Shown here piece by piece: positions 11,159-56,184 of a stretch of 64,000 nt of DNA. The stretch comes from Deltaproteobacteria bacterium HGW-Deltaproteobacteria-4 (GTDB lineage Bacteria > Desulfobacterota > Desulfuromonadia > Desulfuromonadales > UBA2197). The position numbers and the translations under genes are program-made. The stretch covers positions 73,604 through 137,603 of the forward strand of contig PHAV01000002.1 of assembly GCA_002841765.1 (NCBI GenBank). The letters run 5' to 3'. Within the stretch, counting starts at the first letter, position 1. Each line of letters begins with the position of its first letter. The notes under the pieces are model-generated. The model did not search any database. It saw nothing but the letters and a program-made list of their open reading frames with translations, and was not told the DNA's origin.

Positions 11159-12961
11159 TCAGGATTGTACCAGATAACTTTTGATTTCCTCGATAAAGGG
11201 CGCGCCGTAATGCTGGAGCTTGAGACGGCCGACGCCGTTGATTCGCAGCAGGGCTTCCGGAGTGGTCGGGTGATAAGCGGCCATCTCCGCCAGGGAGATA
11301 TCGCTGAAGATGACGTAGGGGGGGACGCCAGCCCTATCCGCCAACTGTTTGCGCAGGGTGCGCAGGAGGTCGAAGAGCTCCTGATCATAATCGATCTCGC
11401 CGGGTTTTTTGCGCGCGGACTTCTTCTCCGGAGCCACCTTGAGGCGGGGCTTGGCCAGAGTTAATTTCTGTTCTCCGCGCAGCAGCGGTCGGGCGGCCTC
11501 CGTGAGTTTGAGGACCGAGAAGTTGGCGACGTCTTGGCGCAGATAGCCGAGATGGATGAGCTGGCGAAAGAGGCTGCTCCACACTTCGCTGCTCATATTC
11601 GCGCCGATGCCGTGCGTCGAGAGTTTATCATGGCCGAGTTCGAGAACGCGGTGAGTGCGAGCGCCGCGCAGCACATCGAGGACATGGCCGATACCGAAAC
11701 GCTGGCCGACGCGGTAGACGCAGGAGAGGGCCTTCTGGGCGTCGACCGTGGCGTCGTAGGTCTCAGGTGGGTTGAGGCAGATGTCGCAGTTGCCGCAGTC
11801 CTCGGCAAGATGTTCGCCAAAATAGCCGAGGAGGATGCGGCGCCTACAGTTCAGCGCTTCGGCGAAACCGACCATAGCGTTGAGTTTGTGCAGCTCGATC
11901 CTCTTCTGCTCGGGATTCCCCCCCTTTTCAATCAGTCCGCGGCTGATGGCGATATCGCCGTAACCGAAGAGGAGAAGGGCTTCACTCGGTAATCCGTCGC
12001 GGCCGGCGCGGCCTGTCTCCTGATAATAACTTTCTACATTCTTGGGGAGATCGTAATGAACGACATAGCGCACGTTCGGTTTGTCGATCCCCATGCCGAA
12101 AGCGACCGTCGCCACAACAATCTGCACATCATCGCGCAAGAAGGCTTCCTGCACGCGCTGCCGCTCGCCATCCGGTAATCCGGCGTGGTAAGCAGCGGCT
12201 TTGTGGCCGGCGCCGACCAGTTTGGCGGTCACCTCTTCCACCCGTTTGCGCGACAGGGCGTAGACGATGCCGGACTGGTTGCTGCGGTTCTTGACAAAGG
12301 CCAGGAGCTGCACCGCCGGTTTGACTTTGTCGACGACAGAGTAACGGATGTTGGGGCGATCGAAACCGGCGATAAAGACCGCCGCGTCCTGTAAACCGAG
12401 GCGGGGGAGGATGTCGGCGCGGGTCTGCGGGTCGGCGGTGGCGGTCAGGGCAATGAGGGGGATGCCGGGGAAGTGGCGACGCAATCGGCCGAGCTGGATA
12501 TATTCGGGGCGGAAATCGTGCCCCCACTGGGAAACGCAGTGCGCTTCGTCGATAGCGAAGAGGGCGATGGGAATCTCCCGCAGGCGGGCCAGAAAATCCT
12601 CACTCATCAACCGTTCCGGCGCAACATAAAGGAGGTCAAGCTCGCCGGCATGGAGTTTCGCCAGAGTCTGACGGGCTTCCGCCGCTTTCAGGGAGGAGTT
12701 GTAAACCGCAGCGCGCACGCCGTTGGCCTGCAGGGCATCGACCTGATCCTTCATCAGCGAGATTAGCGGCGAGACGACGATGCCGACACCGGGGCGGTGC
12801 AGGGCCGGGACCTGAAAACAGAGGGATTTGCCGCCGCCGGTCGGCATCAGGACAAAAGCGTCGTGGCCGGCGATCAGGCGATCGACGATCTCTTCCTGAT
12901 AGGGGCGAAAGGCGCTGTAGCCAAAGACACTTTGCAGGGTTTCACGGGGAGAGGGCAACAA
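11159..12961 (-). CDS. recQ: ATP-dependent DNA helicase RecQ
   Basis: FGYSAFRPYQEEIV, MPTGGGKSLCFQ, DEAH box (FAIDEAHCVSQWGHDFRPEY), RecQ zinc-binding cysteines (CGNCDIC) and a C-terminal HRDC-like region. Confidence 0.95.
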   Translation of the reverse strand: MLPSPRETLQSVFGYSAFRPYQEEIVDRLIAGHDAFVLMPTGGGKSLCFQVPALHRPGVGIVVSPLISLMKDQVDALQANGVRAAVYNSSLKAAEARQTLAKLHAGELDLLYVAPERLMSEDFLARLREIPIALFAIDEAHCVSQWGHDFRPEYIQLGRLRRHFPGIPLIALTATADPQTRADILPRLGLQDAAVFIAGFDRPNIRYSVVDKVKPAVQLLAFVKNRSNQSGIVYALSRKRVEEVTAKLVGAGHKAAAYHAGLPDGERQRVQEAFLRDDVQIVVATVAFGMGIDKPNVRYVVHYDLPKNVESYYQETGRAGRDGLPSEALLLFGYGDIAISRGLIEKGGNPEQKRIELHKLNAMVGFAEALNCRRRILLGYFGEHLAEDCGNCDICLNPPETYDATVDAQKALSCVYRVGQRFGIGHVLDVLRGARTHRVLELGHDKLSTHGIGANMSSEVWSSLFRQLIHLGYLRQDVANFSVLKLTEAARPLLRGEQKLTLAKPRLKVAPEKKSARKKPGEIDYDQELFDLLRTLRKQLADRAGVPPYVIFSDISLAEMAAYHPTTPEALLRINGVGRLKLQHYGAPFIEEIKSYLVQS

Positions 12962-16128: not shown

Positions 16129-16208
16129 CTTATTTCTCCTGTCGTTATCTGCGATCCGTCCTTTGTTCATTGTCAAGGGCTGACGTCTTTGATTTCGCCC
16201 AAAAAAAT

Positions 16209-16769
16209 CTATCGGTATTCATCCTCGGCCCAGCGCGCCGGATTGGCCTCGATATAATCGCGAATTGCTTCGAAATCAGCTTGGTTGCGGATGACGTGTT
16301 CGTAATAGTTGCGTTGCCAGAGAGCCCCGTTCACCCCGCCTGTCGCATTGAGCCGGCGGGTCACCGCGGCCTTGAATTGTCCGATCATCGCGCCCAACGA
16401 CCCCGTCGCTGGGCCGGGCGTAGGGGCGACCCGGTGGGTCGCCCGGTTGTCGCAATCGGAGGACGTTGATCGGGCGACCCACCGGGTCGCCCCTACGGGG
16501 TGATCGATCAAAATAATGCCGTGCAGATGATTCGGCATAATGACAAAGGCATCCAAAACCACCTGTGGCCGAACTTCAGCGGTCCGCAGCCATTCGTCCC
16601 GTACCATCTCCCCTGATTCATTTAGCTGCATCTCGCCATCGACCACCGCCCCGAAGCGGCAGGTCTTACCGTGCGTACAGAGGGTCACAAAGTACGCCCC
16701 GTTAGCGGCGTAATCATAGTCGCGCAGGCGGATGGAGCGACGGTGCTGTAAGTCAGATGGCTGCGGCAT
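16209..16769 (-). CDS. REP-associated tyrosine transposase (RayT / IS200-like Y1 HUH transposase family)
   Basis: HUH motif MPNHLHGIILI, catalytic-Tyr region LWQRNYYEHVIRN, C-terminal IRDYIEANPARW. Surrounded by GTAG-headed REPs. Confidence 0.8.
   Translation of the reverse strand: MPQPSDLQHRRSIRLRDYDYAANGAYFVTLCTHGKTCRFGAVVDGEMQLNESGEMVRDEWLRTAEVRPQVVLDAFVIMPNHLHGIILIDHPVGATRWVARSTSSDCDNRATHRVAPTPGPATGSLGAMIGQFKAAVTRRLNATGGVNGALWQRNYYEHVIRNQADFEAIRDYIEANPARWAEDEYR
16420..16496. repeat. Inverted REP pair inside the RayT coding sequence
   Basis: GTAGGGGCGACCCGGTGGGTCGCCC (16420-16444) and its inverted copy GGGCGACCCACCGGGTCGCCCCTAC (16472-16496). On the coding strand it translates in frame as GATRWVARSTSSDCDNRATHRVAPT. 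Confidence 0.9.
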
Positions 16770-16817
16770 GGAACCCCCTCCATGATGATCATTAAAGATT
16801 CTGTCCCTCGTTGTACC

Positions 16818-16879
16818 GTAGGGGCGCATTGCATGCGCCCGTCTGGTTGGTGTCGTAGGGGCGACCCGGTGGGTCGCCC
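16818..16879 (+). repeat. 62-bp composite REP unit (BIME-like), copy 1
   Basis: GTAGGGGCGCATTGCATGCGCCC + GTCTGGTTGGTGTC + GTAGGGGCGACCCGGTGGGTCGCCC. Confidence 0.9.
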
Positions 16880-16923
16880 AGTTTGGATTACCCTTTCCGT
16901 CGAAAGGGGATGACATTGTCAGG

Positions 16924-17430
16924 CTAGGGCGGCGCTGGCGGCGGATCGGCCAGGGTGCGCATTTCATCCCGTGGCCGGCCATATTTCAGCGCCCCCATCG
17001 GGGTCTCGACGATTTTATCCGACGTCTCCTCCGGCGTGTCACCGCCGTATTCAATATGGGCTTGGGCGCAGCGGACAAGGTCGTTGATCGAGCCCATGAC
17101 CTTGCGGTCGCCGGTCTTGATGAAGACGACCTCGTCCCCGGCCGGGATGATCCGTTCCTTGAAGAGTGCGCCGCAACCGTCCTTGATCATCTGTCTTACC
17201 AGGGCCTCGTAGGCGCGTTCGATGAAATGCTCGGGTTTGGTGATGCCGCGTCCGGGGAAGATCACCGAATAGAGGGTGGCGCTGTTGGTGACGATGATGT
17301 ACTGGCAGCGGTCGGCGACAAAGAGGTTGGCGGTCCAGTCGGTCAGGGGGTCGGCGGCGCGGGGGAGGGCGACCGTCGGGGCGATCTTGAGCTTGGTGGC
17401 GAGTTTTTGGGTGACGCGGAAGATGAGCAT
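16924..17430 (-). CDS. Hypothetical protein (possibly DUF6933-like) flanked by composite REP units
   Basis: 168-aa ORF starting MLIFRVTQKLATKL. High GC. The family assignment is from memory only. Confidence 0.45.
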   Translation of the reverse strand: MLIFRVTQKLATKLKIAPTVALPRAADPLTDWTANLFVADRCQYIIVTNSATLYSVIFPGRGITKPEHFIERAYEALVRQMIKDGCGALFKERIIPAGDEVVFIKTGDRKVMGSINDLVRCAQAHIEYGGDTPEETSDKIVETPMGALKYGRPRDEMRTLADPPPAPP

Positions 17431-17478
17431 GGCAACCTCGGTGATAAGTTGGCGTGCAGGCGCGAGGTGATGTTTGCT

Positions 17479-17540
17479 GTAGGGGCGCATTGCATGCGCC
17501 CGCTTGGTTGGTGTCGTAGGGGCGACCCGGTGGGTCGCCC
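17479..17540 (+). repeat. 62-bp composite REP unit (BIME-like), copy 2
   Basis: GTAGGGGCGCATTGCATGCGCCC + GCTTGGTTGGTGTC + GTAGGGGCGACCCGGTGGGTCGCCC. Differs from copy 1 at 2 spacer positions. Confidence 0.9.
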
Positions 17541-17574
17541 GGTTTGTACTAAAAGCCCCCCCATTTAATTCATT

Positions 17575-19335
17575 TTAGCCGCCGGGATGAATAATTGGGT
17601 TCGATTCCTTGATGAAAGAAATTAGTTTTAAGACTTGCTTTTTAAGGTCTAGGATATCGAAATTTGGTTCGAATTTTTTCGTGATGTGTTTTGCTACATC
17701 AACCTTTGAAGCTTGAGCTTTATCCCCGCCCTTAGTAATTATCGAAAGCGTATTTGCATATTTCTCAAAGCTAGAATTGATTCGTGCTGAAGGCTTCGTC
17801 TCGTTTATAGCGGCTCTTATCTGATCTGGCGGAAGGTAGTTTTCTATCTCTCTTCCATCTGTGATCCAGGCATAGCCAGGGCCAGCATTGAACTCTTGAG
17901 ATAGACGCGTCTTTGTGGCGTTTATTCTCGACTTTGGTTTTTCTTTGTCACTATCGATGAGAATTACTGACCTTCTATTTAAGCGTCGGAGCGAAATAAA
18001 ATCTTCGACCATTTCGTCCATGTCGTCGGCAGACAGATGAGATGCCAAACGCCCCCCATAGAACATAATGGAATAATGGATGCCTTCTATCAGCGCTGGT
18101 GAAACAAAGTGAATCCAAGAATTAAGGTAGATTCGATCTGACGGGCCTTCGACCCAGATGATGCAATTTGCTTGCAATAAATCGGATGGATGATAGCCAA
18201 GGTTTTCACATACTTCTGACTTGTGTCTGTCAGAGGTCGCTCTTCGCGCCCTTGATTCACCTTGCTCCAAATTTATGTGGTAGATTTCGGCATTTGGCGT
18301 GTCCATAAGAGCCGCTGAATGCGTGGTGATAAAATACTGATTTTTTGTGGATTCAAGCAAATATCTAACGAGTTTTTTTTGCAGGATGGGATTTAAATGA
18401 AGCTCTGGCTCCTCCATACATATTGCTGTGTTTTCAAGGATGGTAGCTGCTGCCGCCAAGATTATCACTTCATGAATTCCGGTTCCCAGTGATTCAAGAG
18501 GGAGAGTTTTTCCATCCATGTGAACGAGAATGGTGTCTCTTTCATGGGGTATTTCTATGGTTGCCGTCTCGTTGTCTAGCACGTTCCGCAAAAATCTATT
18601 GATACTTTTAAATTTATTACGATCTTCCTGCTTGAGAACATCCGGATTTTGCAGTCTGACCAAGCGTTCGATAATTCCTTCGCCGCTAAAATCTTCGGAT
18701 ATTGAACCTTTGTTCCCGACTTTTCTGATAGCTGGGATCATTACGGAATTAATAGCGGTGAAATTAGGAGCTAATCTTCTAATCGATTCTGGATACCAGT
18801 GCTGTTCTCTTCCCCCGCCGCTTTGTCCAGTCAATGCTTTCCATAAACTATTAATTTCTCTGTCTTCCAGGATGTCGAATGTCATTTTCCATGAGGAATC
18901 AATAAGTTTTAAGTCGTTACCAAAGTCAAACCAAACATACTTACTCTCATCTGATTCAGACTTCTTTTGAAATACGCGAAGTGCGTAGCCAGGTGCTTGA
19001 GTTCCTCTGACATTTTCTGGGAATTTCGATGTTATTTTCTGGTTGAAATCTGCATGGTTACCAAGGTCATCGATTTTCAACGAAACAGCCAAGCCAACTA
19101 CAAAATTTGCACCAGTTGGTAGGTGTCGATCAAGGGGATTGAATTTAATCGCCTGCCCCTGTGAAAGGAGAGGATAGATATCATGAATAAATCTAAGGAT
19201 GTTGGATTTTCCGCTGTTGTTTTGACCTATGAATAGGTTGATTTTTGAAAGGGTGTCAAAGCGCTGAATATTCTTGCCGAAGCTTCGATACCCGGCTAGC
19301 GAGAATGATTCAATGATAATCGGGTTATTTTTCAT
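17575..19335 (-). CDS. ABC-type ATPase fused to a Toprim nuclease domain (OLD-family / fused PARIS AriA-AriB-like), candidate defence protein
   Basis: Walker A GQNNSGKSN, signature-like LESLGTGIHE, Walker B ICMEEPELHLNP, H-loop ITTHS. C-terminal Toprim-like motifs are IIWVEGPSDRIYL, VILIDSDKE and TDGREIENYLP. The gene is visibly AT-rich against GC-rich flanks. Confidence 0.7.
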   Translation of the reverse strand: MKNNPIIIESFSLAGYRSFGKNIQRFDTLSKINLFIGQNNSGKSNILRFIHDIYPLLSQGQAIKFNPLDRHLPTGANFVVGLAVSLKIDDLGNHADFNQKITSKFPENVRGTQAPGYALRVFQKKSESDESKYVWFDFGNDLKLIDSSWKMTFDILEDREINSLWKALTGQSGGGREQHWYPESIRRLAPNFTAINSVMIPAIRKVGNKGSISEDFSGEGIIERLVRLQNPDVLKQEDRNKFKSINRFLRNVLDNETATIEIPHERDTILVHMDGKTLPLESLGTGIHEVIILAAAATILENTAICMEEPELHLNPILQKKLVRYLLESTKNQYFITTHSAALMDTPNAEIYHINLEQGESRARRATSDRHKSEVCENLGYHPSDLLQANCIIWVEGPSDRIYLNSWIHFVSPALIEGIHYSIMFYGGRLASHLSADDMDEMVEDFISLRRLNRRSVILIDSDKEKPKSRINATKTRLSQEFNAGPGYAWITDGREIENYLPPDQIRAAINETKPSARINSSFEKYANTLSIITKGGDKAQASKVDVAKHITKKFEPNFDILDLKKQVLKLISFIKESNPIIHPGG

Positions 19336-19361
19336 TTGAGTTGTAACTCCTAGTCAAAACC

Positions 19362-19386
19362 GGGCGACCCACCGGGTCGCCCCTAC
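19362..19386 (-). repeat. REP (inverted orientation)
   Basis: GGGCGACCCACCGGGTCGCCCCTAC, 26 bp upstream of the ATPase start codon. Confidence 0.9.
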
Positions 19387-19439
19387 GAATCACCGGGCAT
19401 GGGCGAATCACCGGGCATGGGCGAATCACCGGCAAAGGC
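19387..19439. repeat. Tandem 18-bp repeat, 2 full units plus 1 degenerate
   Basis: GAATCACCGGGCATGGGC x2, then GAATCACCGGCAAAGGC. Confidence 0.85.
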
Positions 19440-19460
19440 GGCAGGTCGACGGCGCCAAGC

Positions 19461-19483
19461 GGGCGGACGCGGTCCGCCCCTAC
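19461..19483 (-). repeat. REP variant (inverted orientation)
   Basis: GGGCGGACGCGGTCCGCCCCTAC, with the same GTAGGGGC head and a different hairpin. Confidence 0.8.
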
Positions 19484-19508
19484 GAAAACAAATCAGCGGC
19501 GTGGAACC

Positions 19509-19533
19509 GGGCGACCCGCCGGGTCGCCCCTAC
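19509..19533 (-). repeat. REP (inverted orientation)
   Basis: GGGCGACCCGCCGGGTCGCCCCTAC. Confidence 0.9.
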
Positions 19534-19580
19534 GGGAACACGTAAAGTTGTTGAATGGGGGGGAGGGTTCGGCCGGTCAC

Positions 19581-19672: not shown

Positions 19673-21904
19673 TTACGCGCACTCGCTGTAGCCACAAGCA
19701 TGGCACACACAACAGCCGCCTTCGTGCTCGACGACGCCGCCGCATTCGGGGCAGGCCCCGCCGTTCTGGGAGTGGATGGTCCCTTCCATTCCTTCTTCGT
19801 GCGCCTGGACGTGCATCATGATCGCCCGGGCAACGGCGTCGGAACAGCTGGTGATGCGGTTGTCGCCGAAACCGGCCGGTTTGTGGCAGCTGATGCCGAT
19901 CAGCTGTTTGACCGTCTGGCGGGCCTGGACGCCGGAGCGCCAGGCGAGGGAGACGAGGCGGCCGATCGCTTCGCACTGGCTGGAGGCACAGCCGCCGGCC
20001 TTGCCCATGGTGGTGAAGACTTCGAAGAGGCCGGCGTTATCCTCGTTGATAGTGATGTAGAGGGGGCCGCAGCCGGTCTCCATCTGGTAGGTGGAGCCTT
20101 TGAGGGCGCGGGGACGGTCGCGTTTGCGGCCGGTCTTCTGGACTTCGACCGGGACAGCGGCTTCGGCCGGGGTGTCCTTCTTGCCGACCGAGAGGACCTG
20201 CATGTCGCGGGAACCGTCGCGGTAGATCGTCACACCTTTACACCCCTGCTGATAAGCGAGGCGGTAGACGGTGGCGACATCCTCCTTGGTGGCGGTGTTG
20301 CAGAAGTTGACGGTCTTGGAGACGGCGTTGTCGGTGTATCTCTGGAAGGCCGCCTGCATGCGAATGTGGTCTTCCGGGGTGATGTCGTGGGAAGTGACGA
20401 AGATGCGGCGGATGTCCTCGGGGACCTGGTCGATATCCTTGACCGTACCGTGCTGGGCGATGAGTTTCATCAGTTCCGGCGAATAGAAGCCGCGCTCGCG
20501 GGCGATCTTTTCGAAGAGGGGGTTAACCTCGACGAGGATGTCGTTATCGAGGACCTGGCGGACGTAGCTGACGGCGAAGAGGGGCTCGATGCCGCTGGAG
20601 GAGTTGGCGATGATCGAGATGGTGCCGGTCGGGGCGATGGTCGAGCTGGTGGCGTTGCGTACCGGCTTGCTCCCCTTCTTGTCGAAGGTGCTCCCTTTGA
20701 AGTTGGGGAAAGCGCCGCGCTCGGTAGCGAGTTCCTGCGACATGATCCGCGCTTCGTCGGTGATGAACTTCATCACCTTCTCGCCGAGTTCCACCCCTTC
20801 CTGCGAGTTGTAGGGGATGTTCAGCATGATCAGCATATCCGCCCAGCCCATGACGCCGAGGCCGATCTTGCGATTGGCGCGGGTCATCTTGTCGATCTGC
20901 GGGATCGGGTAGTTGTTGACTTCGATGACGTTGTCGAGGAAGCGGGCGGCGCTGCGCACGGTCTTGCGGAGACGATCCCAGTCGACCTGGTTCCCTTTAA
21001 GCATCAGGGCGAGGTTGATCGAGCCGAGGTTGCAGCTTTCATAAGGGAGGAGGGGTTGCTCGCCGCAAGGATTGGTCGCTTCGAATTCGCCGACCAGCGG
21101 CGTCGGGTTGTCGCGGTTGAGGCGGTCGAGGAAGATGATCCCCGGCTCACCGTTGCTCCAGGCGAGTTCGACGATATGTTCGAAGACCTTGCGGGCGGGG
21201 AGGGTGCGGCCATCGGCTTTGTTGCGGGGGTTGACGAGCTGGTAGTCGGCATCTTTCTCGACCGCTTCCATAAAGGCTTCAGTCATACCGACGGAGATGT
21301 TGAAGTTGGTGAGGACGGTCTGATCCCGCTTGCACATGATAAAATCCATGATATCGGGATGGTCGACACGGAGAATCCCCATGTTGGCGCCGCGCCGGGT
21401 GCCGCCCTGCTTGATCGTTTCGGTGGCGGCATCAAAGACCTTCATGAAGGAGAGGGGGCCGCTGGAGACGCCGCTCGTCGACTGGACAACGTCGTTGGCG
21501 GGGCGGATGCGTGAAAAGGAGAAGCCGGTGCCGCCGCCGCTTTTGTGGATGAGGGCGGTCTGCTTGATCGCTTCAAAGATCTCCTCCATCGAGTCGCCGA
21601 CCGGCAGGACGAAACAGGCGGAGAGTTGGCCGAGTTCGCGGCCGGCATTCATTAGCGTCGGCGAATTGGGGAGGAACTCGAGGGAGGTCATCATCCGGTA
21701 GAATTCGTCGGCGAGCGCCTTGGCATCGACGCCGGTCTTGAGTTTGGTCTCGGCGCCGGCAATCGCTTCGGCGACGCGGCGGAACATCGCGGCCGGGGTC
21801 TCGGTCGGCTTGCCGTCGAGATCACGTTTGAGGTAACGGCGCTCAAGGACAGTGATGGCATTTTTTGAAAGGCTGGTGGTCGTTTCGGTCGTCTTTGCGG
21901 GCAT
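19673..21904 (-). CDS. nrdJ: Adenosylcobalamin-dependent (class II) ribonucleotide reductase
   Basis: AITVLERRYL, FLPNSPTLMNAG, NPCGEQPL, a single 743-aa chain and a C-terminal Cys-rich tail CPECGGVVEHEGGCCVCHACGYSEC. Confidence 0.9.
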   Translation of the reverse strand: MPAKTTETTTSLSKNAITVLERRYLKRDLDGKPTETPAAMFRRVAEAIAGAETKLKTGVDAKALADEFYRMMTSLEFLPNSPTLMNAGRELGQLSACFVLPVGDSMEEIFEAIKQTALIHKSGGGTGFSFSRIRPANDVVQSTSGVSSGPLSFMKVFDAATETIKQGGTRRGANMGILRVDHPDIMDFIMCKRDQTVLTNFNISVGMTEAFMEAVEKDADYQLVNPRNKADGRTLPARKVFEHIVELAWSNGEPGIIFLDRLNRDNPTPLVGEFEATNPCGEQPLLPYESCNLGSINLALMLKGNQVDWDRLRKTVRSAARFLDNVIEVNNYPIPQIDKMTRANRKIGLGVMGWADMLIMLNIPYNSQEGVELGEKVMKFITDEARIMSQELATERGAFPNFKGSTFDKKGSKPVRNATSSTIAPTGTISIIANSSSGIEPLFAVSYVRQVLDNDILVEVNPLFEKIARERGFYSPELMKLIAQHGTVKDIDQVPEDIRRIFVTSHDITPEDHIRMQAAFQRYTDNAVSKTVNFCNTATKEDVATVYRLAYQQGCKGVTIYRDGSRDMQVLSVGKKDTPAEAAVPVEVQKTGRKRDRPRALKGSTYQMETGCGPLYITINEDNAGLFEVFTTMGKAGGCASSQCEAIGRLVSLAWRSGVQARQTVKQLIGISCHKPAGFGDNRITSCSDAVARAIMMHVQAHEEGMEGTIHSQNGGACPECGGVVEHEGGCCVCHACGYSECA

Positions 21905-21965
21905 GAAATGGGCCCTCCCTTTGAGGATTCAATAACTTAGAGCTATTTTATGTTTTCGTTGAATG

Positions 21966-22012
21966 ACACTAGATGGTGTATGGTGGCAAGAGTTAAACCA
22001 CAATATGTCGTG
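21966..22012. promoter_or_regulatory. Possible tandem NrdR boxes upstream of nrdJ
   Basis: ACACTAGATGGTGT (21966-21979) and CACAATATGTCGTG (21999-22012). Both are ACAC/CAC...GTG(T) palindromes with centres ~33 bp apart. Confidence 0.4.
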
Positions 22013-22221
22013 CGTGTCAAGATGGGAGTCGTAAAAAAATCGAAAAATTTGTTGCAGCGATCACAAGGGGGAACGGGGGTTTCTACCTTCTCCTCTGGCG
22101 ATTTGACTCTTTGCATTCATGATTGGATGTGTTAGTAATTCATAAATTTTAAGCAGTCGATCCATGTAAAGTTGTTGGCGGTGGTTGTCTTTATATGCTT
22201 CCTGGAAAGTGAGGGCTTACA

Positions 22222-23316
22222 TTGAGCATCAGGCGGTTTACCGGGCGCGAAAATGTACTGAACCAGGATGAATTTACTGACGAAGAGTTGAATGGTCTGC
22301 GCGAGGTTCTTTCTGTGGCACAGGTCGTTGTCTCTTCACTCGATCTGGACGAAGTTCTCCATAATATTCTCTGTAGTGCTATGGGCATCATGGATATGCC
22401 TGCCGGGAGTATTGCTTTATATGATGAGTCTATTAACAAACTTGCACTGCACGCTCATATCGGTTTAAGCGAAGCACTGACTTCAAGGTCGAGCTGGGAA
22501 GTCACTCCGGGCGGACTGACCCATCGGATCCTCAGCGAGGGGCAGTTCTTTGTTGTTGAAGATACGCAAGGGGAAGCGTTTTTTAAAAATCCCTTGACGA
22601 TCGGGGAAGGGATTTGTTCGCTGATTGCCGTCCCCCTGAAGATGCAGAAAAAGATCATCGGTATCCTTTATCTTGATGATTTTGTCCCCCGCACTTTCAC
22701 GCCGATGCGTCTGCATATGCTCTCCATCCTCGCCTCTTTTGCCACCATGAGTATCGACAATGCGCGACTGCATGTTAAAACTCATCTTCTTGCTTGCACC
22801 GATGGCTTGACCGGTTTGTACAACCACCGTCACTTTCTGGAAAGCTTTGACGAAGAGATGGTTCGTGCCATCCGTTATGAAAAACCTTTGTCGTTGGTGA
22901 TGATCGATGTTGACGATTTCAAGCTTTTTAATGATCGCCATGGTCATCCCGTCGGGGACAAAGCCCTGATTGCCGTCGCCAGGACCTTGCAATCTGTCCT
23001 GCGCACCTGTGATTATTCTTTCCGTTACGGAGGGGAGGAATTCATTGCTATTCTTACTGAAACGAATCTAGAGCAGGCACTGGTCGCTGCCGAGCGCTTG
23101 CGACTGGGCATTATTGCCGGCACGCAGGAAGCCCTTGCCGGTATCGCCCCGGAGGGGGTGACGGTGAGCATCGGCGTTGCTTCCTATCCTCATGACGGAA
23201 CCGGCGATGCGCTGTTCAAAGAGGCAGACGACCAACTTTATCGGGCCAAGCGGGAAGGAAAGAACCGCGTCTACTGTTCCGCTTGCAGTTCTTCTTTGCG
23301 AAATGGATGTGATTAA
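22222..23316 (+). CDS. GAF-domain diguanylate cyclase (GGDEF)
   Basis: N-terminal GAF-like region and a C-terminal GGDEF domain (DGLTGLYNHRHF, RYGGEEF, YRAKREGKN). TTG start. Confidence 0.85.
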   Translation: MSIRRFTGRENVLNQDEFTDEELNGLREVLSVAQVVVSSLDLDEVLHNILCSAMGIMDMPAGSIALYDESINKLALHAHIGLSEALTSRSSWEVTPGGLTHRILSEGQFFVVEDTQGEAFFKNPLTIGEGICSLIAVPLKMQKKIIGILYLDDFVPRTFTPMRLHMLSILASFATMSIDNARLHVKTHLLACTDGLTGLYNHRHFLESFDEEMVRAIRYEKPLSLVMIDVDDFKLFNDRHGHPVGDKALIAVARTLQSVLRTCDYSFRYGGEEFIAILTETNLEQALVAAERLRLGIIAGTQEALAGIAPEGVTVSIGVASYPHDGTGDALFKEADDQLYRAKREGKNRVYCSACSSSLRNGCD

Positions 23317-37995: not shown

Positions 37996-38352
37996 GGGGG
38001 CGCCAAGGTTTCGACGGGGATAGGAAGCGAAGGTTGCATGCCGGGGATGCCAGTTGGCCTCGTTAAAAAATCTGGCAACACATACAAACGCCGATACTGA
38101 CGTTCGTTACGCACTAGCGGCTTAATTGCCGCTACGTCTCTTCGCTTCATCGCCCATGTGGGGTTTAGAGACGTCATTAATGTGGGATAGTTCTCAAGTT
38201 CGCCTGCGGCGCGAGAGCGAAATCTAGCAGGATCCCCCAAAGAAAATCCTGTCCGTGGGAGTTTCGAGGGTAAACTAAAATACGGACTACGCATGTAGAA
38301 GCTTTTCGTAGATGATTTTCGGACGCGGGTTCGATTCCCGCCGCCTCCACCA
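37996..38352 (+). ncRNA. ssrA: tmRNA (SsrA)
   Basis: 5' GGGGGCGCCAAGGTTTCGACGGGG and 3' GGACGCGGGTTCGATTCCCGCCGCCTCCACCA. The internal tag frame reads GCC GAT ACT GAC GTT CGT TAC GCA CTA GCG GCT TAA (…DTDVRYALAA stop). Confidence 0.95.
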
Positions 38353-56097: not shown

Positions 56098-56184
56098 GCC
56101 CGGGTGGTGGAATAGGTAGACACAAGGGACTTAAAATCCCTCGATCGTAAGGTCATACCGGTTCGATTCCGGTCCCGGGCACCA
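56098..56184 (+). tRNA. tRNA-Leu (anticodon UAA), class II with a long variable arm, CCA encoded
   Basis: GCCCGGGTGGTGGAATAGGTAGACAC, then AGGGA-CTTAAAA-TCCCT, then variable arm CGATCGTAAGGTCATAC, then CGGTTCGATTCCGGTCCCGGGCACCA. Confidence 0.9.

What the first reader, a model, noticed from the sequence alone, without database searches (positions are those of the whole stretch)
17575..19335. AT-rich ABC-ATPase + Toprim gene: candidate stand-alone (OLD-like or fused PARIS-like) anti-phage nuclease
Seen in the sequence:
- A 586-aa protein with a complete ABC/SMC-type ATPase head: Walker A GQNNSGKSN, signature LESLGTGIHE, Walker B ICMEEPELHLNP, H-loop ITTHS.
- A C-terminal Toprim-like module: IIWVEGPSDRIYL, VILIDSDKE, TDGREIENYLP.
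- The gene is strikingly AT-rich inside GC-rich DNA. I judged this by eye and did not compute GC.
- It has no partner gene. There is no UvrD-like helicase as in Gabija and no separate DUF4435 protein as in two-gene PARIS.
- It sits between REP clusters next to a transposase.
Established knowledge: ATPase + Toprim proteins (P2 Old, GajA, AriA/AriB) are abortive-infection or defence nucleases. The EG-x-x-D ... IENYL pattern looks closer to DUF4435 (AriB-type) than to canonical OLD Toprim.
Inference: this is a horizontally acquired single-polypeptide defence effector, possibly a fused or divergent subtype.
Basis: partly seen in the sequence, partly recalled or inferred. Interest (0 to 1): 0.78.

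Follow-up and report, generated by a model that had tools for sequence, protein, structure and literature searches.

The report
Stand-alone OLD-family ATPase–Toprim nuclease gene
This AT-rich gene encodes a single-protein ATPase plus Toprim nuclease from a large, already catalogued but untested branch (clade U7) of the OLD family, so it is a plausible but unproven anti-phage gene, not a new kind of system.

Summary
Its GC is 0.417 (GC3 0.41), against 0.58-0.63 in the flanks (neighbour GC3 0.74-0.85).

The N-terminal half is a bona fide ABC ATPase (Pfam AAA_15 and AAA_21, both above cut-off). The C-terminal 220 residues are a divergent Toprim domain plus a helical domain:
- Pfam OLD-like_TOPRIM scores below cut-off in this protein but hits weakly in 39/39 relatives. 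DUF4435 hits in only 3/39.
- The best fold matches are AriB, Class 2 OLD C-terminal regions and GajA.
- The OLD two-metal ligand pattern is conserved (E396-x3-D400, D461-x-D463, [E/S/T]496-x-E498).

No partner gene exists here or in 79 related loci. Relatives 47-51% identical are labelled "U7", an uncharacterised bacterial clade, in a published OLD-family tree.

The "closer to DUF4435 / fused PARIS" reading is not supported. The low GC is a family-wide property confined to the ORF (76 of 77 loci). The flanking REPs and the RAYT belong to a host-specific insertion that is absent from a syntenic relative. A defence role is inferred, not shown.

Verdict: new member of a known kind, moderate interest.

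The parts
17575..19335 (-). Complete ORF, 586 aa: OLD-family (clade U7) ATPase-Toprim protein
18241..19335 (-). ABC/SMC-type ATPase head (residues 1-365), including a conserved inserted domain (approximately residues 60-270, nt 18526-19158) with invariant W135, F136, W149, W165 and W180
   Evidence: Pfam AAA_15/AAA_21 above cut-off; invariant columns; pLDDT about 90
19201..19227 (-). Walker A, GQNNSGKSN (K43 invariant)
18469..18498 (-). ABC signature, LESLGTGIHE
18388..18423 (-). Walker B and D-loop, ICMEEPELHLNP (E308, E309, H313 invariant)
18316..18330 (-). H-loop, ITTHS (H339 invariant)
17821..18171 (-). Toprim nuclease core (residues 389-505). Putative metal A ligands are E396, D461, D463. 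Putative metal B ligands are D400, E496 (E/S/T in relatives) and E498.
   Evidence: Motif conservation; weak OLD-like_TOPRIM hits in 39/39 relatives; fold matches; mapped by pattern onto the Ts/Bp OLD residues listed in PMC7049728
17578..17820 (-). C-terminal beta/helical domain (residues 506-586) with invariant K544 and A548. K544 is a candidate equivalent of Bp OLD K562 (inferred).
19347..19350 (-). GGAG ribosome-binding site, 11 nt upstream of the ATG. It lies inside the segment conserved with the relative L083.
   Evidence: sequence read directly
17514..17551 (.). REP copy immediately downstream of the gene (context, not part of the gene)
19351..19388 (.). Inverted REP copy immediately upstream of the gene (context). 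A further REP lies at 19505-19534.

Best explanation
The gene encodes a self-contained OLD-family enzyme. An ABC-type ATPase head, with a conserved inserted domain, is fused to a Toprim two-metal nuclease and a small C-terminal domain. It belongs to a very large bacterial clade, labelled U7 in a published OLD phylogeny, that nearly always occurs as one gene of about 580 codons with no fixed partner.

Most likely it is a single-gene anti-phage or anti-mobile-element effector:
- The ATPase head dimerises on ATP and, with the inserted domain, senses an infection cue or gates activity (inferred).
- The Toprim site then cuts nucleic acid. By analogy with characterised OLD enzymes, this would be either nicking or degrading DNA, or cutting the anticodon stem of tRNAs. 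The result would be to stop phage replication or abort the infection (inferred).

Shown here: domain composition, conservation of ATPase and metal-ligand residues, fold similarity, stand-alone context, clade assignment, and the family-wide AT-rich, ORF-limited composition.

Not shown: any activity, trigger, substrate or phage phenotype.
For: - ATPase: AAA_15 at 64 bits and AAA_21 at 56 bits, both above the Pfam cut-offs. Walker A, signature, Walker B, D-loop His and H-loop are invariant in 40 homologues.
- Whole-protein model (pLDDT 82): the best PDB matches are the OLD proteins of retron Eco8 (5e-13) and Gabija GajA (3e-12).
- C-terminal model (pLDDT 88): the top specific matches are AriB, Bp/Xcc OLD C-terminal regions, GajA, Ts OLD and the Eco2 Toprim.
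- OLD-like_TOPRIM hits weakly in 39/39 diverse relatives.
- hhalign to P2 Old (7.7e-6) and YbjD (4.5e-4) runs through the first Toprim motif. It puts E396 and D400 on P2 E398 and E402; E402 is the residue mutated in the P2-OLD tRNA-cleavage paper.
- The metal-ligand pattern E-x3-D, D-x-D, [E/S/T]-x-E is conserved and matches the Ts/Bp OLD sites.
- Clade assignment: 51% and 47% identity to sequences labelled U7 in Dataset EV1 of PMC12796447.
- Stand-alone context: the largest neighbour family occurs in only 4 of 79 loci, and no Pfam family occurs in more than 2 of 149 immediate neighbours.
- Patchy spread across many phyla at 40-86% identity.
- GC below the flanks in 76 of 77 loci.
- Some loci lie in clear defence or mobile islands: Sulfurovum (integrase, ArdA, HNH, type I RM, GmrSD); others sit next to an integrase plus satellite genes, or IS elements plus a PLD-helicase.
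- Characterised stand-alone OLD proteins do defend: P2 Old and Vc OLD (PMC12445682, PMC12392090).
Against: - No experiment exists for any U7 member.
- The C-terminal domain is not recognised above threshold by any Pfam model in this protein (15 bits against a 23.2 cut-off). A family profile finds no OLD, GajA or AriB chain in PDB by sequence. The Foldseek E-values for the domain are weak (about 1e-2).
- Many loci, including this one, sit among housekeeping genes: ribonucleotide reductase, RecQ, tRNA synthetases, DNA polymerases.
- The gene is syntenic and well conserved between two related genomes, so it is not hypermobile.
- At least one OLD clade (Cran1) is reported to have a non-defence role.
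- The family is essentially absent from phage genomes and rare on plasmids, with 9 full-length hits.
Confidence: 0.6

Rival explanations
1. It is a fused PARIS system (AriA-AriB in one polypeptide). It would be triggered by phage anti-restriction proteins and would cut a specific host tRNA.
For: - The PADLOC AriAB profile hits at 3.7e-17 over residues 296-531, and AriA profiles at 6e-19.
- AriA is the best PDB sequence match (6e-4).
- AriB has the lowest Foldseek E-value for the C-terminal model (8.7e-3, prob. 0.96).
- Fused PARIS forms are reported (PMC9122126).
Against: - The PARIS detection rule needs DUF4435 (PF14491) at 27 bits or more. This protein gives no DUF4435 hit even at E<=10, and only 3/39 relatives hit weakly, against 39/39 for OLD-like_TOPRIM.
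- The two PADLOC 'AriA' profiles have the same lengths (373/304 against 374/304) and match the same profile positions as Pfam AAA_15 and AAA_21, so they look like the generic Pfam ATPase models (inferred). The AriAB hit vanishes when the C-terminal half is scanned alone.
- AriB aligns over only 155-166 columns (TMq 0.32-0.35).
- In the published tree, relatives fall in U7, not in Class 4.
Confidence: 0.1
2. It has a housekeeping or chromosome-maintenance role (DNA repair, replication-associated nicking, chromatin), like the archaeal OLD-family protein Cran1, and is not an immune gene.
For: - The window locus and several homologue loci lie among DNA and nucleotide metabolism genes: NrdJ here, an RNR small chain in L001, RecQ adjacent in L089 and 4.6 kb away here, plus DNA polymerases and UvrB among neighbours.
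- The position is conserved between two related genomes, and the gene (86% nt) is more conserved than its neighbour (75.5% nt).
- Protein conservation is strong.
- There is a precedent in Cran1.
Against: - The distribution across phyla is patchy, with no conserved neighbourhood.
- GC3 is far below the host's, in nearly all loci.
- The gene occurs in integrase, IS and restriction-modification islands.
- Cran1 is reported to be vertically inherited with a conserved membrane-protein partner. That is unlike this family.
Confidence: 0.15
3. It is an orphan Gabija GajA or retron-type OLD effector that has lost its partner (helicase or reverse transcriptase), and so is inactive or acts with a partner encoded elsewhere.
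For: - GajA profiles are the top PADLOC hits (5e-20).
- GajA and retron Eco8 OLD are the top whole-protein fold matches.
- The C-terminal region resembles Class 2 C-terminal regions.
Against: - No UvrD-like helicase, reverse transcriptase or retron RNA lies nearby.
- No such partner recurs in 79 related loci.
- The catalytic residues are invariant across a family of at least 1691 clusters at 50% identity, which argues against decay.
- The GajA profile matches are partial and centred on the ATPase C-lobe.
Confidence: 0.05

Closest known systems
Class 1 OLD nucleases (phage P2 Old, Thermus scotoductus OLD, Vibrio cholerae Vc OLD, E. coli YbjD)
   Same: Single stand-alone gene in variable neighbourhoods. 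Same length range (P2 Old is also 586 aa). Same layout of ABC ATPase with an inserted domain plus a C-terminal Toprim. Same E-x3-[D/E] and D-x-D motifs.
   Different: Sequence similarity is marginal and limited to the ATPase C-lobe and the first Toprim motif (hhalign 7.7e-6 and 4.5e-4). Ts OLD matches by sequence at only 0.028. Published phylogeny puts relatives in a separate clade, U7. Ts OLD lacks a C-terminal helical domain, whereas this protein has about 80 residues after the Toprim core.
Class 2 OLD / Gabija GajA (B. cereus GajA; Burkholderia pseudomallei and Xanthomonas OLD C-terminal regions)
   Same: Best structural superposition of the whole C-terminal region (TM 0.46-0.56 over about 230 columns). 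Toprim followed by a further domain that carries an invariant Lys, at a spacing similar to Bp K562 (inferred). Top PADLOC profile hits.
   Different: No adjacent UvrD/PcrA/Rep-like helicase here or in related loci. That helicase is the defining feature of Class 2.
PARIS (AriA ATPase + AriB DUF4435 Toprim; Class 4 OLD), including fused forms
   Same: ATPase plus Toprim logic. AriA is the best PDB sequence hit and AriB has the lowest-E fold hit for the C-terminal domain.
   Different: DUF4435 is not detectable. One polypeptide. Relatives are not in Class 4 in the published tree.
Retron Eco8 OLD effector (Class 3)
   Same: Best whole-protein fold match (5e-13). NCBIfam retron_eff_Eco8 gives a weak partial hit (46 bits against a 250-bit cut-off).
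   Different: No reverse transcriptase or retron ncRNA is present.
Clade U7 of Yang et al. 2025 (EMBO Rep, PMC12796447): uncharacterised bacterial OLD-family clade
   Same: Direct sequence membership. 51% identity (E 4e-137) to MDD2776354.1 (Gallionella) and 47% to MBA3442182.1, both labelled U7, with the family-specific WVEGPSDR and MEEPELHLNP strings.
   Different: None found. In the passages read, the paper gives no function, structure or context analysis for U7.

Membership tests
OLD family (ATPase-Toprim nucleases) | N-terminal ABC-type ATPase with Walker A, signature, Walker B and H-loop | tested here: met
   AAA_15 at 64.1 bits (cut-off 32.1) and AAA_21 at 56.1 bits (cut-off 27). Motifs are invariant in 40 homologues.
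OLD family (ATPase-Toprim nucleases) | C-terminal Toprim domain recognised by the Pfam OLD-like_TOPRIM model above its gathering score | tested here: not met
   12.8-15 bits against a 23.2 cut-off. However, 39/39 diverse relatives give weak hits, best E 2.4e-4.
OLD family (ATPase-Toprim nucleases) | Toprim fold with conserved metal A (E, DxD) and metal B (D/E, S/T-x-E) ligands | tested here: met
   In the C-terminal model (pLDDT 88), OLD, GajA and AriB Toprim structures are the top specific fold hits. E396, D400, D461, D463 and E498 are invariant or nearly so, and position 496 is E/S/T. The pattern matches Ts/Bp OLD. The geometry was not measured.
OLD family (ATPase-Toprim nucleases) | Placement within a published OLD-family phylogeny | tested here: met
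   47-51% identity to sequences labelled U7 in Dataset EV1 of PMC12796447.
Class 1 OLD | Stand-alone gene, variable neighbourhood, 500-600 aa | tested here: met
   586 aa. The neighbours are DUF6933 and NrdJ. No recurrent neighbour in 79 loci.
Class 1 OLD | Groups with P2 Old / Ts OLD / Vc OLD by sequence or phylogeny | tested here: not met
   Only partial hhalign matches. Ts OLD E = 0.028. Relatives are labelled U7, not Class 1.
Class 2 OLD / Gabija GajA | [quoted passage not shown] | tested here: not met
   The nearest helicase is RecQ, 4.6 kb away beyond three other genes.
Class 3 OLD / retron effector | Adjacent reverse transcriptase and retron ncRNA | tested here: not met
   No RT among the neighbours. 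No Rfam family near the gene.
Class 4 OLD / PARIS (two-gene or fused) | DUF4435 (PF14491, 27 bits or more) in the same protein or the adjacent gene | tested here: not met
   No hit at E<=1 for the full protein or E<=10 for the C-terminal half. Neighbours lack it. The rule is taken from PMC9122126.
Class 4 OLD / PARIS (two-gene or fused) | Match to a fused AriAB profile across both halves | tested here: inconclusive
   PADLOC AriAB scores 60 bits but covers only profile positions 325-552 of 694. There is no AriAB hit when residues 365-586 are scanned alone.
Anti-phage defence system (functional class) | Protection against phage that depends on ATPase and nuclease residues | not testable with these tools
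   Needs expression and phage challenge.
Anti-phage defence system (functional class) | Enrichment in defence islands or mobile elements | tested here: inconclusive
   4-5 of 7 annotated contexts show integrase, IS or RM genes. Among 149 immediate neighbours, most are housekeeping or unknown and only a few are RM or toxin-antitoxin domains. No background control was run.

The most novel reading that the evidence does not exclude
Clade U7 may be a functionally distinct, self-sufficient class of OLD nucleases. It would combine a Class-2-like catalytic C-terminal region with no helicase partner, and a highly conserved Trp-rich inserted domain acting as its own sensor. It would persist across many bacterial phyla as a one-gene islet whose AT-richness is actively maintained, for example for silencing or tight expression control. 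On that reading it would be one of the most widespread single-gene immune effectors still unvalidated, possibly with a new trigger or a new RNA target.
Probability: 0.3. Interest if true: 0.55.

Novelty: new member of a known kind. Interest (0 to 1): 0.35.

Why it matters
Stand-alone OLD nucleases are the least understood branch of a family that underlies Gabija, PARIS and some retrons. Only P2 Old and Vc OLD have demonstrated defence roles, with phenotypes recently reported for YbjD. This gene belongs to a very large clade: 1691 clusters at 50% identity with E<=1e-30. In the papers read here, the clade has been placed on a tree but not studied. The family is compact, has intact catalytic sites and needs no partner. 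That makes it a tractable test of two questions: can an OLD protein defend on its own, and does it cut DNA or tRNA? The sharply ORF-limited GC deficit, seen across phyla, is also a useful cautionary example. Low GC here marks the gene family, not a recent insertion event.

Tried and rejected
1. REP-bracketed mobile cassette. The gene lies between 38-nt inverted REP arms, which suggested RAYT-mediated mobilisation. I rejected this. A relative with an 86% identical gene has it joined directly to the DUF2157 gene, so the REP/RAYT/DUF6933 block between them is absent there (its short upstream flank cannot show whether the REPs upstream of the gene are also absent), and homology starts 20 nt upstream of the ATG.
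2. Conserved partner gene. All-against-all clustering of up to 4 genes on each side in 79 loci found nothing present in more than 4 loci. A Pfam scan of 149 immediate neighbours found no family in more than 2. The two 726-aa neighbours in L084 and L085 are unrelated.
3. C-terminal family profile against PDB sequences: only chance-level hits.
5. Retron or other RNA near the gene: none.
6. Phage origin: no full-length match in 50,697 phage records. In BFVD the only OLD-like hits are giant-virus 'ATP-dependent endonucleases'.
7. NCBIfam: only sub-threshold hits, to the Eco8 effector, PtuA and RecF.
8. Promoter scan: no sigma-70-like site on the coding strand upstream. This is uninformative for this organism.
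Full report
**Observation**

The ORF at 17575-19335 on the minus strand is real: ATG start, 586 codons. The AT-richness, judged by eye, is confirmed:
- Gene GC is 0.417, against 0.628 and 0.576 in the 5-kb flanks.
- GC3 is 0.41, against 0.74-0.85 in NrdJ, RecQ, DUF6933 and DUF2157.

The neighbours on the same strand are a class II ribonucleotide reductase upstream and a DUF6933 gene downstream. Beyond DUF6933 come a Y1-transposase (RAYT-like) ORF and a DUF2157 membrane protein. RecQ lies 4.6 kb away. A 21-nt REP palindrome (GGGCGACCC-NNN-GGGTCGCCC with a GTAG head) occurs six times in the window, all within 16424-19529, with none expected by chance. Two inverted copies abut the gene.

**Domain composition**

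The N-terminal two thirds is an ABC/SMC-type ATPase. Pfam AAA_15 and AAA_21 both score above their curated cut-offs. Walker A K43, the signature, Walker B E308/E309, D-loop H313 and H-loop H339 are invariant in a 40-sequence alignment.

The C-terminal 220 residues are harder to place:
- Pfam OLD-like_TOPRIM reaches only 13-15 bits against a 23.2 cut-off. DUF4435 is not found even at E<=10.
- A profile of 39 diverse C-terminal domains finds no related chain in PDB by sequence.
- When the 39 members are scanned individually, all 39 give a weak OLD-like_TOPRIM hit (best 2.4e-4). Only 3 hit DUF4435, 4 hit DUF3226 and 2 hit DUF4276.
- AlphaFold models are confident: pLDDT 82 for the whole protein and 88 for the C-terminal domain.
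- The whole protein matches the OLD proteins of retron Eco8 and Gabija GajA best.
- The C-terminal domain's top specific hits are AriB (E 8.7e-3, about 160 columns, TMq 0.32-0.35), the Burkholderia and Xanthomonas Class 2 OLD C-terminal regions (E about 1e-2, about 230 columns, TM 0.46-0.56), GajA, Ts OLD and the Eco2 Toprim. Individually these E-values are weak. The agreement among the hits is what carries weight.

**Catalytic residues**

hhalign of the family profile against P2 Old and E. coli YbjD aligns the ATPase C-lobe through the first Toprim motif. It places E396 and D400 on P2 E398 and E402. E402 is the residue whose mutation abolishes P2-OLD tRNA cleavage.

The published active sites of Ts OLD and Bp OLD are as follows:
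- Ts OLD: E377, D431, D433 for metal A; D381, S478, E480 for metal B.
- Bp OLD: E400, D455, D457 for metal A; E404, T506, E508 for metal B.

The same pattern appears here as E396-x3-D400, D461-S-D463 and [E/S/T]496-x-E498. All are invariant or nearly so, except position 496, which varies among E, S, T and A. S and T are the residues Ts OLD and Bp OLD carry at this position.

An invariant lysine (K544) sits in the helix after the Toprim core, 46 residues beyond E498. In Bp OLD the catalytic K562 lies 54 residues beyond E508, in the helical domain. The equivalence is an inference, because I could not measure distances in the model.

**Family and context**

The protein is 100% identical to a hypothetical protein of 'Deltaproteobacteria bacterium HGW-Deltaproteobacteria-4'. 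Homologues of 40-86% identity occur in Beta-, Gamma-, Alpha-, Delta- and Epsilonproteobacteria, Chlorobi, Cyanobacteria, Planctomycetes, Acidobacteria, Nitrospirae, Chloroflexi and others. An exhaustive search of 1.84 billion cluster representatives gives 9446 hits, 1691 of them at E<=1e-30. Nearly all of the best 150 are about 580 aa.

In 79 genome loci no neighbour family recurs in more than 4 loci. Among 149 immediate neighbours no Pfam family occurs more than twice. They range from ribonucleotide reductase, DNA polymerases and tRNA synthetases to type I RM specificity subunits, PIN/Phd pairs and ATPases.

Seven loci with precomputed annotation show a mixture:
- A clear defence and integrative island in Sulfurovum: integrase, ArdA, HNH, another AAA_15 ATPase, type I RM, GmrSD.
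- An integrase plus satellite-like genes.
- IS66 plus a PLD-helicase.
- A primase-bearing element.
- Plain housekeeping settings next to RecQ or a tRNA synthetase.

The family is absent from phage genomes as a full-length gene. It is rare on plasmids, with 9 full-length hits.

**Composition and acquisition**

The GC deficit is not peculiar to this locus:
- In 76 of 77 loci the gene is more than 3 points below its flanks, with a median of -11 points.
- Averaged over 67 loci, the trough starts about 100-200 nt upstream of the start codon and ends within about 100-200 nt of the stop.

A Logan contig (L083) carries an 86% identical gene with the same GC (0.415; GC3 0.42). There the gene is followed directly by the orthologue of the window's DUF2157 gene, which is 75.5% identical in nucleotides. 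Three things follow:
- The gene was already at this position in the common ancestor of the two genomes.
- The 1.39-kb block 16192-17583 (RAYT, DUF6933, REPs) is an insertion in the window's lineage or a deletion in the other.
- The REPs flanking the gene are host repeats that colonised the intergenic spaces, not the ends of a cassette.

Horizontal spread of the family is well supported. Recent acquisition at this locus is not.

**Comparison with known systems**

OLD proteins are classed mainly by context:
- Class 1: stand-alone.
- Class 2: with a UvrD-like helicase (Gabija).
- Class 3: in retrons.
- Class 4: split into AriA/AriB (PARIS).
- A proposed archaeal class 5: Cran1.

By context and length this gene is Class 1-like. 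By sequence it is far from P2 Old, Ts OLD and YbjD. Its C-terminal region looks more like the Class 2 type, which has an extra domain after Toprim. It fails the Class 2, Class 3 and Class 4 defining features.

The decisive placement comes from Dataset EV1 of Yang et al. 2025 (PMC12796447). Searching it for family-specific peptides found 16 sequences with WVEGPSD, all in the block labelled U7. Two of them align to this protein at 51% (E 4e-137) and 47% identity over the first ~400 residues held. That paper describes U5, U6, U7, U9 and U10 only as previously uncharacterised clades dominated by bacteria.

**Mechanism**

The best-supported reading is a self-contained OLD nuclease whose ATPase head controls a two-metal Toprim active site. 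Characterised relatives differ in what they do:
- They nick or degrade DNA (Ts OLD, Vc OLD, GajA).
- Or they cut tRNA anticodon stems (P2 Old, AriB).

The evidence here cannot say which applies. The inserted domain in the ATPase (about residues 60-270) is confidently modelled and carries five invariant aromatic residues: W135, F136, W149, W165, W180. In Ts OLD the equivalent insert is the dimerisation domain. A role in oligomerisation or trigger sensing is plausible but untested.

I put about 0.9 on 'OLD-family U7 ATPase-Toprim nuclease' and about 0.6 on the full statement that includes a defence role. The main rivals are a non-defence chromosomal function (0.15), a fused PARIS (0.1) and an orphaned Class 2 or 3 effector (0.05).

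**Verdict**

The finer call (AriB/DUF4435-like, possibly fused PARIS) is not supported. The signs of recent acquisition were over-read. The gene is a new member of a known kind that has been catalogued but not characterised. Interest is moderate.

Noticed in passing
window 16209-16982 (-), REP pair at 16419-16497: The Y1-transposase (RAYT-like) ORF contains an inverted REP pair inside its reading frame. The pair translates as ...HPVGATRWVAR...RATHRVAPT..., between the HxH motif and the C-terminal half. Pfam Y1_Tnp matches only the C-terminal part (profile 64-120, E 1e-4). This could be a REPIN inserted in frame, or a REP-like hairpin that is a normal feature of this RAYT lineage.
   Followed up: no
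window 16818-16890 and 17479-17551: A 73-nt direct repeat (93% identical), made of two REP-type palindromes, flanks the GC-rich DUF6933 gene (16924-17490). Together with the RAYT, this 1.39-kb block (16192-17583) is absent from the syntenic relative L083.
   Followed up: partly
window 19386-19439: Three tandem copies of an 18-nt unit (CGAATCACCGGGCATGGG; the third is degenerate). They sit between the REP copies upstream of the gene, in the nrdJ-OLD intergenic region.
   Followed up: no
L001-L080, 67 loci averaged: The GC trough of this gene family is confined to the ORF plus about 100-200 nt on each side, in hosts ranging from 30% to 70% GC. It is retained in two syntenic relatives (GC3 0.41 and 0.42). 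This suggests AT-richness is maintained and is not merely a sign of recency.
   Followed up: partly
window 19673-21904 and 11159-12961; L001 1555-2706; L089 9923-12073: Homologues sit next to ribonucleotide reductase genes in two unrelated genomes (this window and a Thiobacillus MAG). They sit next to or near RecQ in two others (this window and a Chromatiales MAG). With so few cases this may be chance.
   Followed up: no
L088 10891-13365 (Sulfurovum sp. CS9): About 2 kb from the homologue lies a second AAA_15/AAA_21 ATPase (537 aa). It is directly followed by a 286-aa protein with no Pfam hit, which makes a possible two-gene ATPase-plus-effector system. The same island also holds HNH, type I RM and GmrSD genes.
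   Followed up: no
window 37996-38352 and 56098-56181: A tmRNA gene (210 bits) and a tRNA gene elsewhere in the window. They are unrelated to the finding.
   Followed up: no
window 21750-22750: A second, milder low-GC stretch (0.45-0.49). It covers the nrdJ upstream region and the start of the GAF-GGDEF gene, whose GC3 is only 0.54.
   Followed up: no
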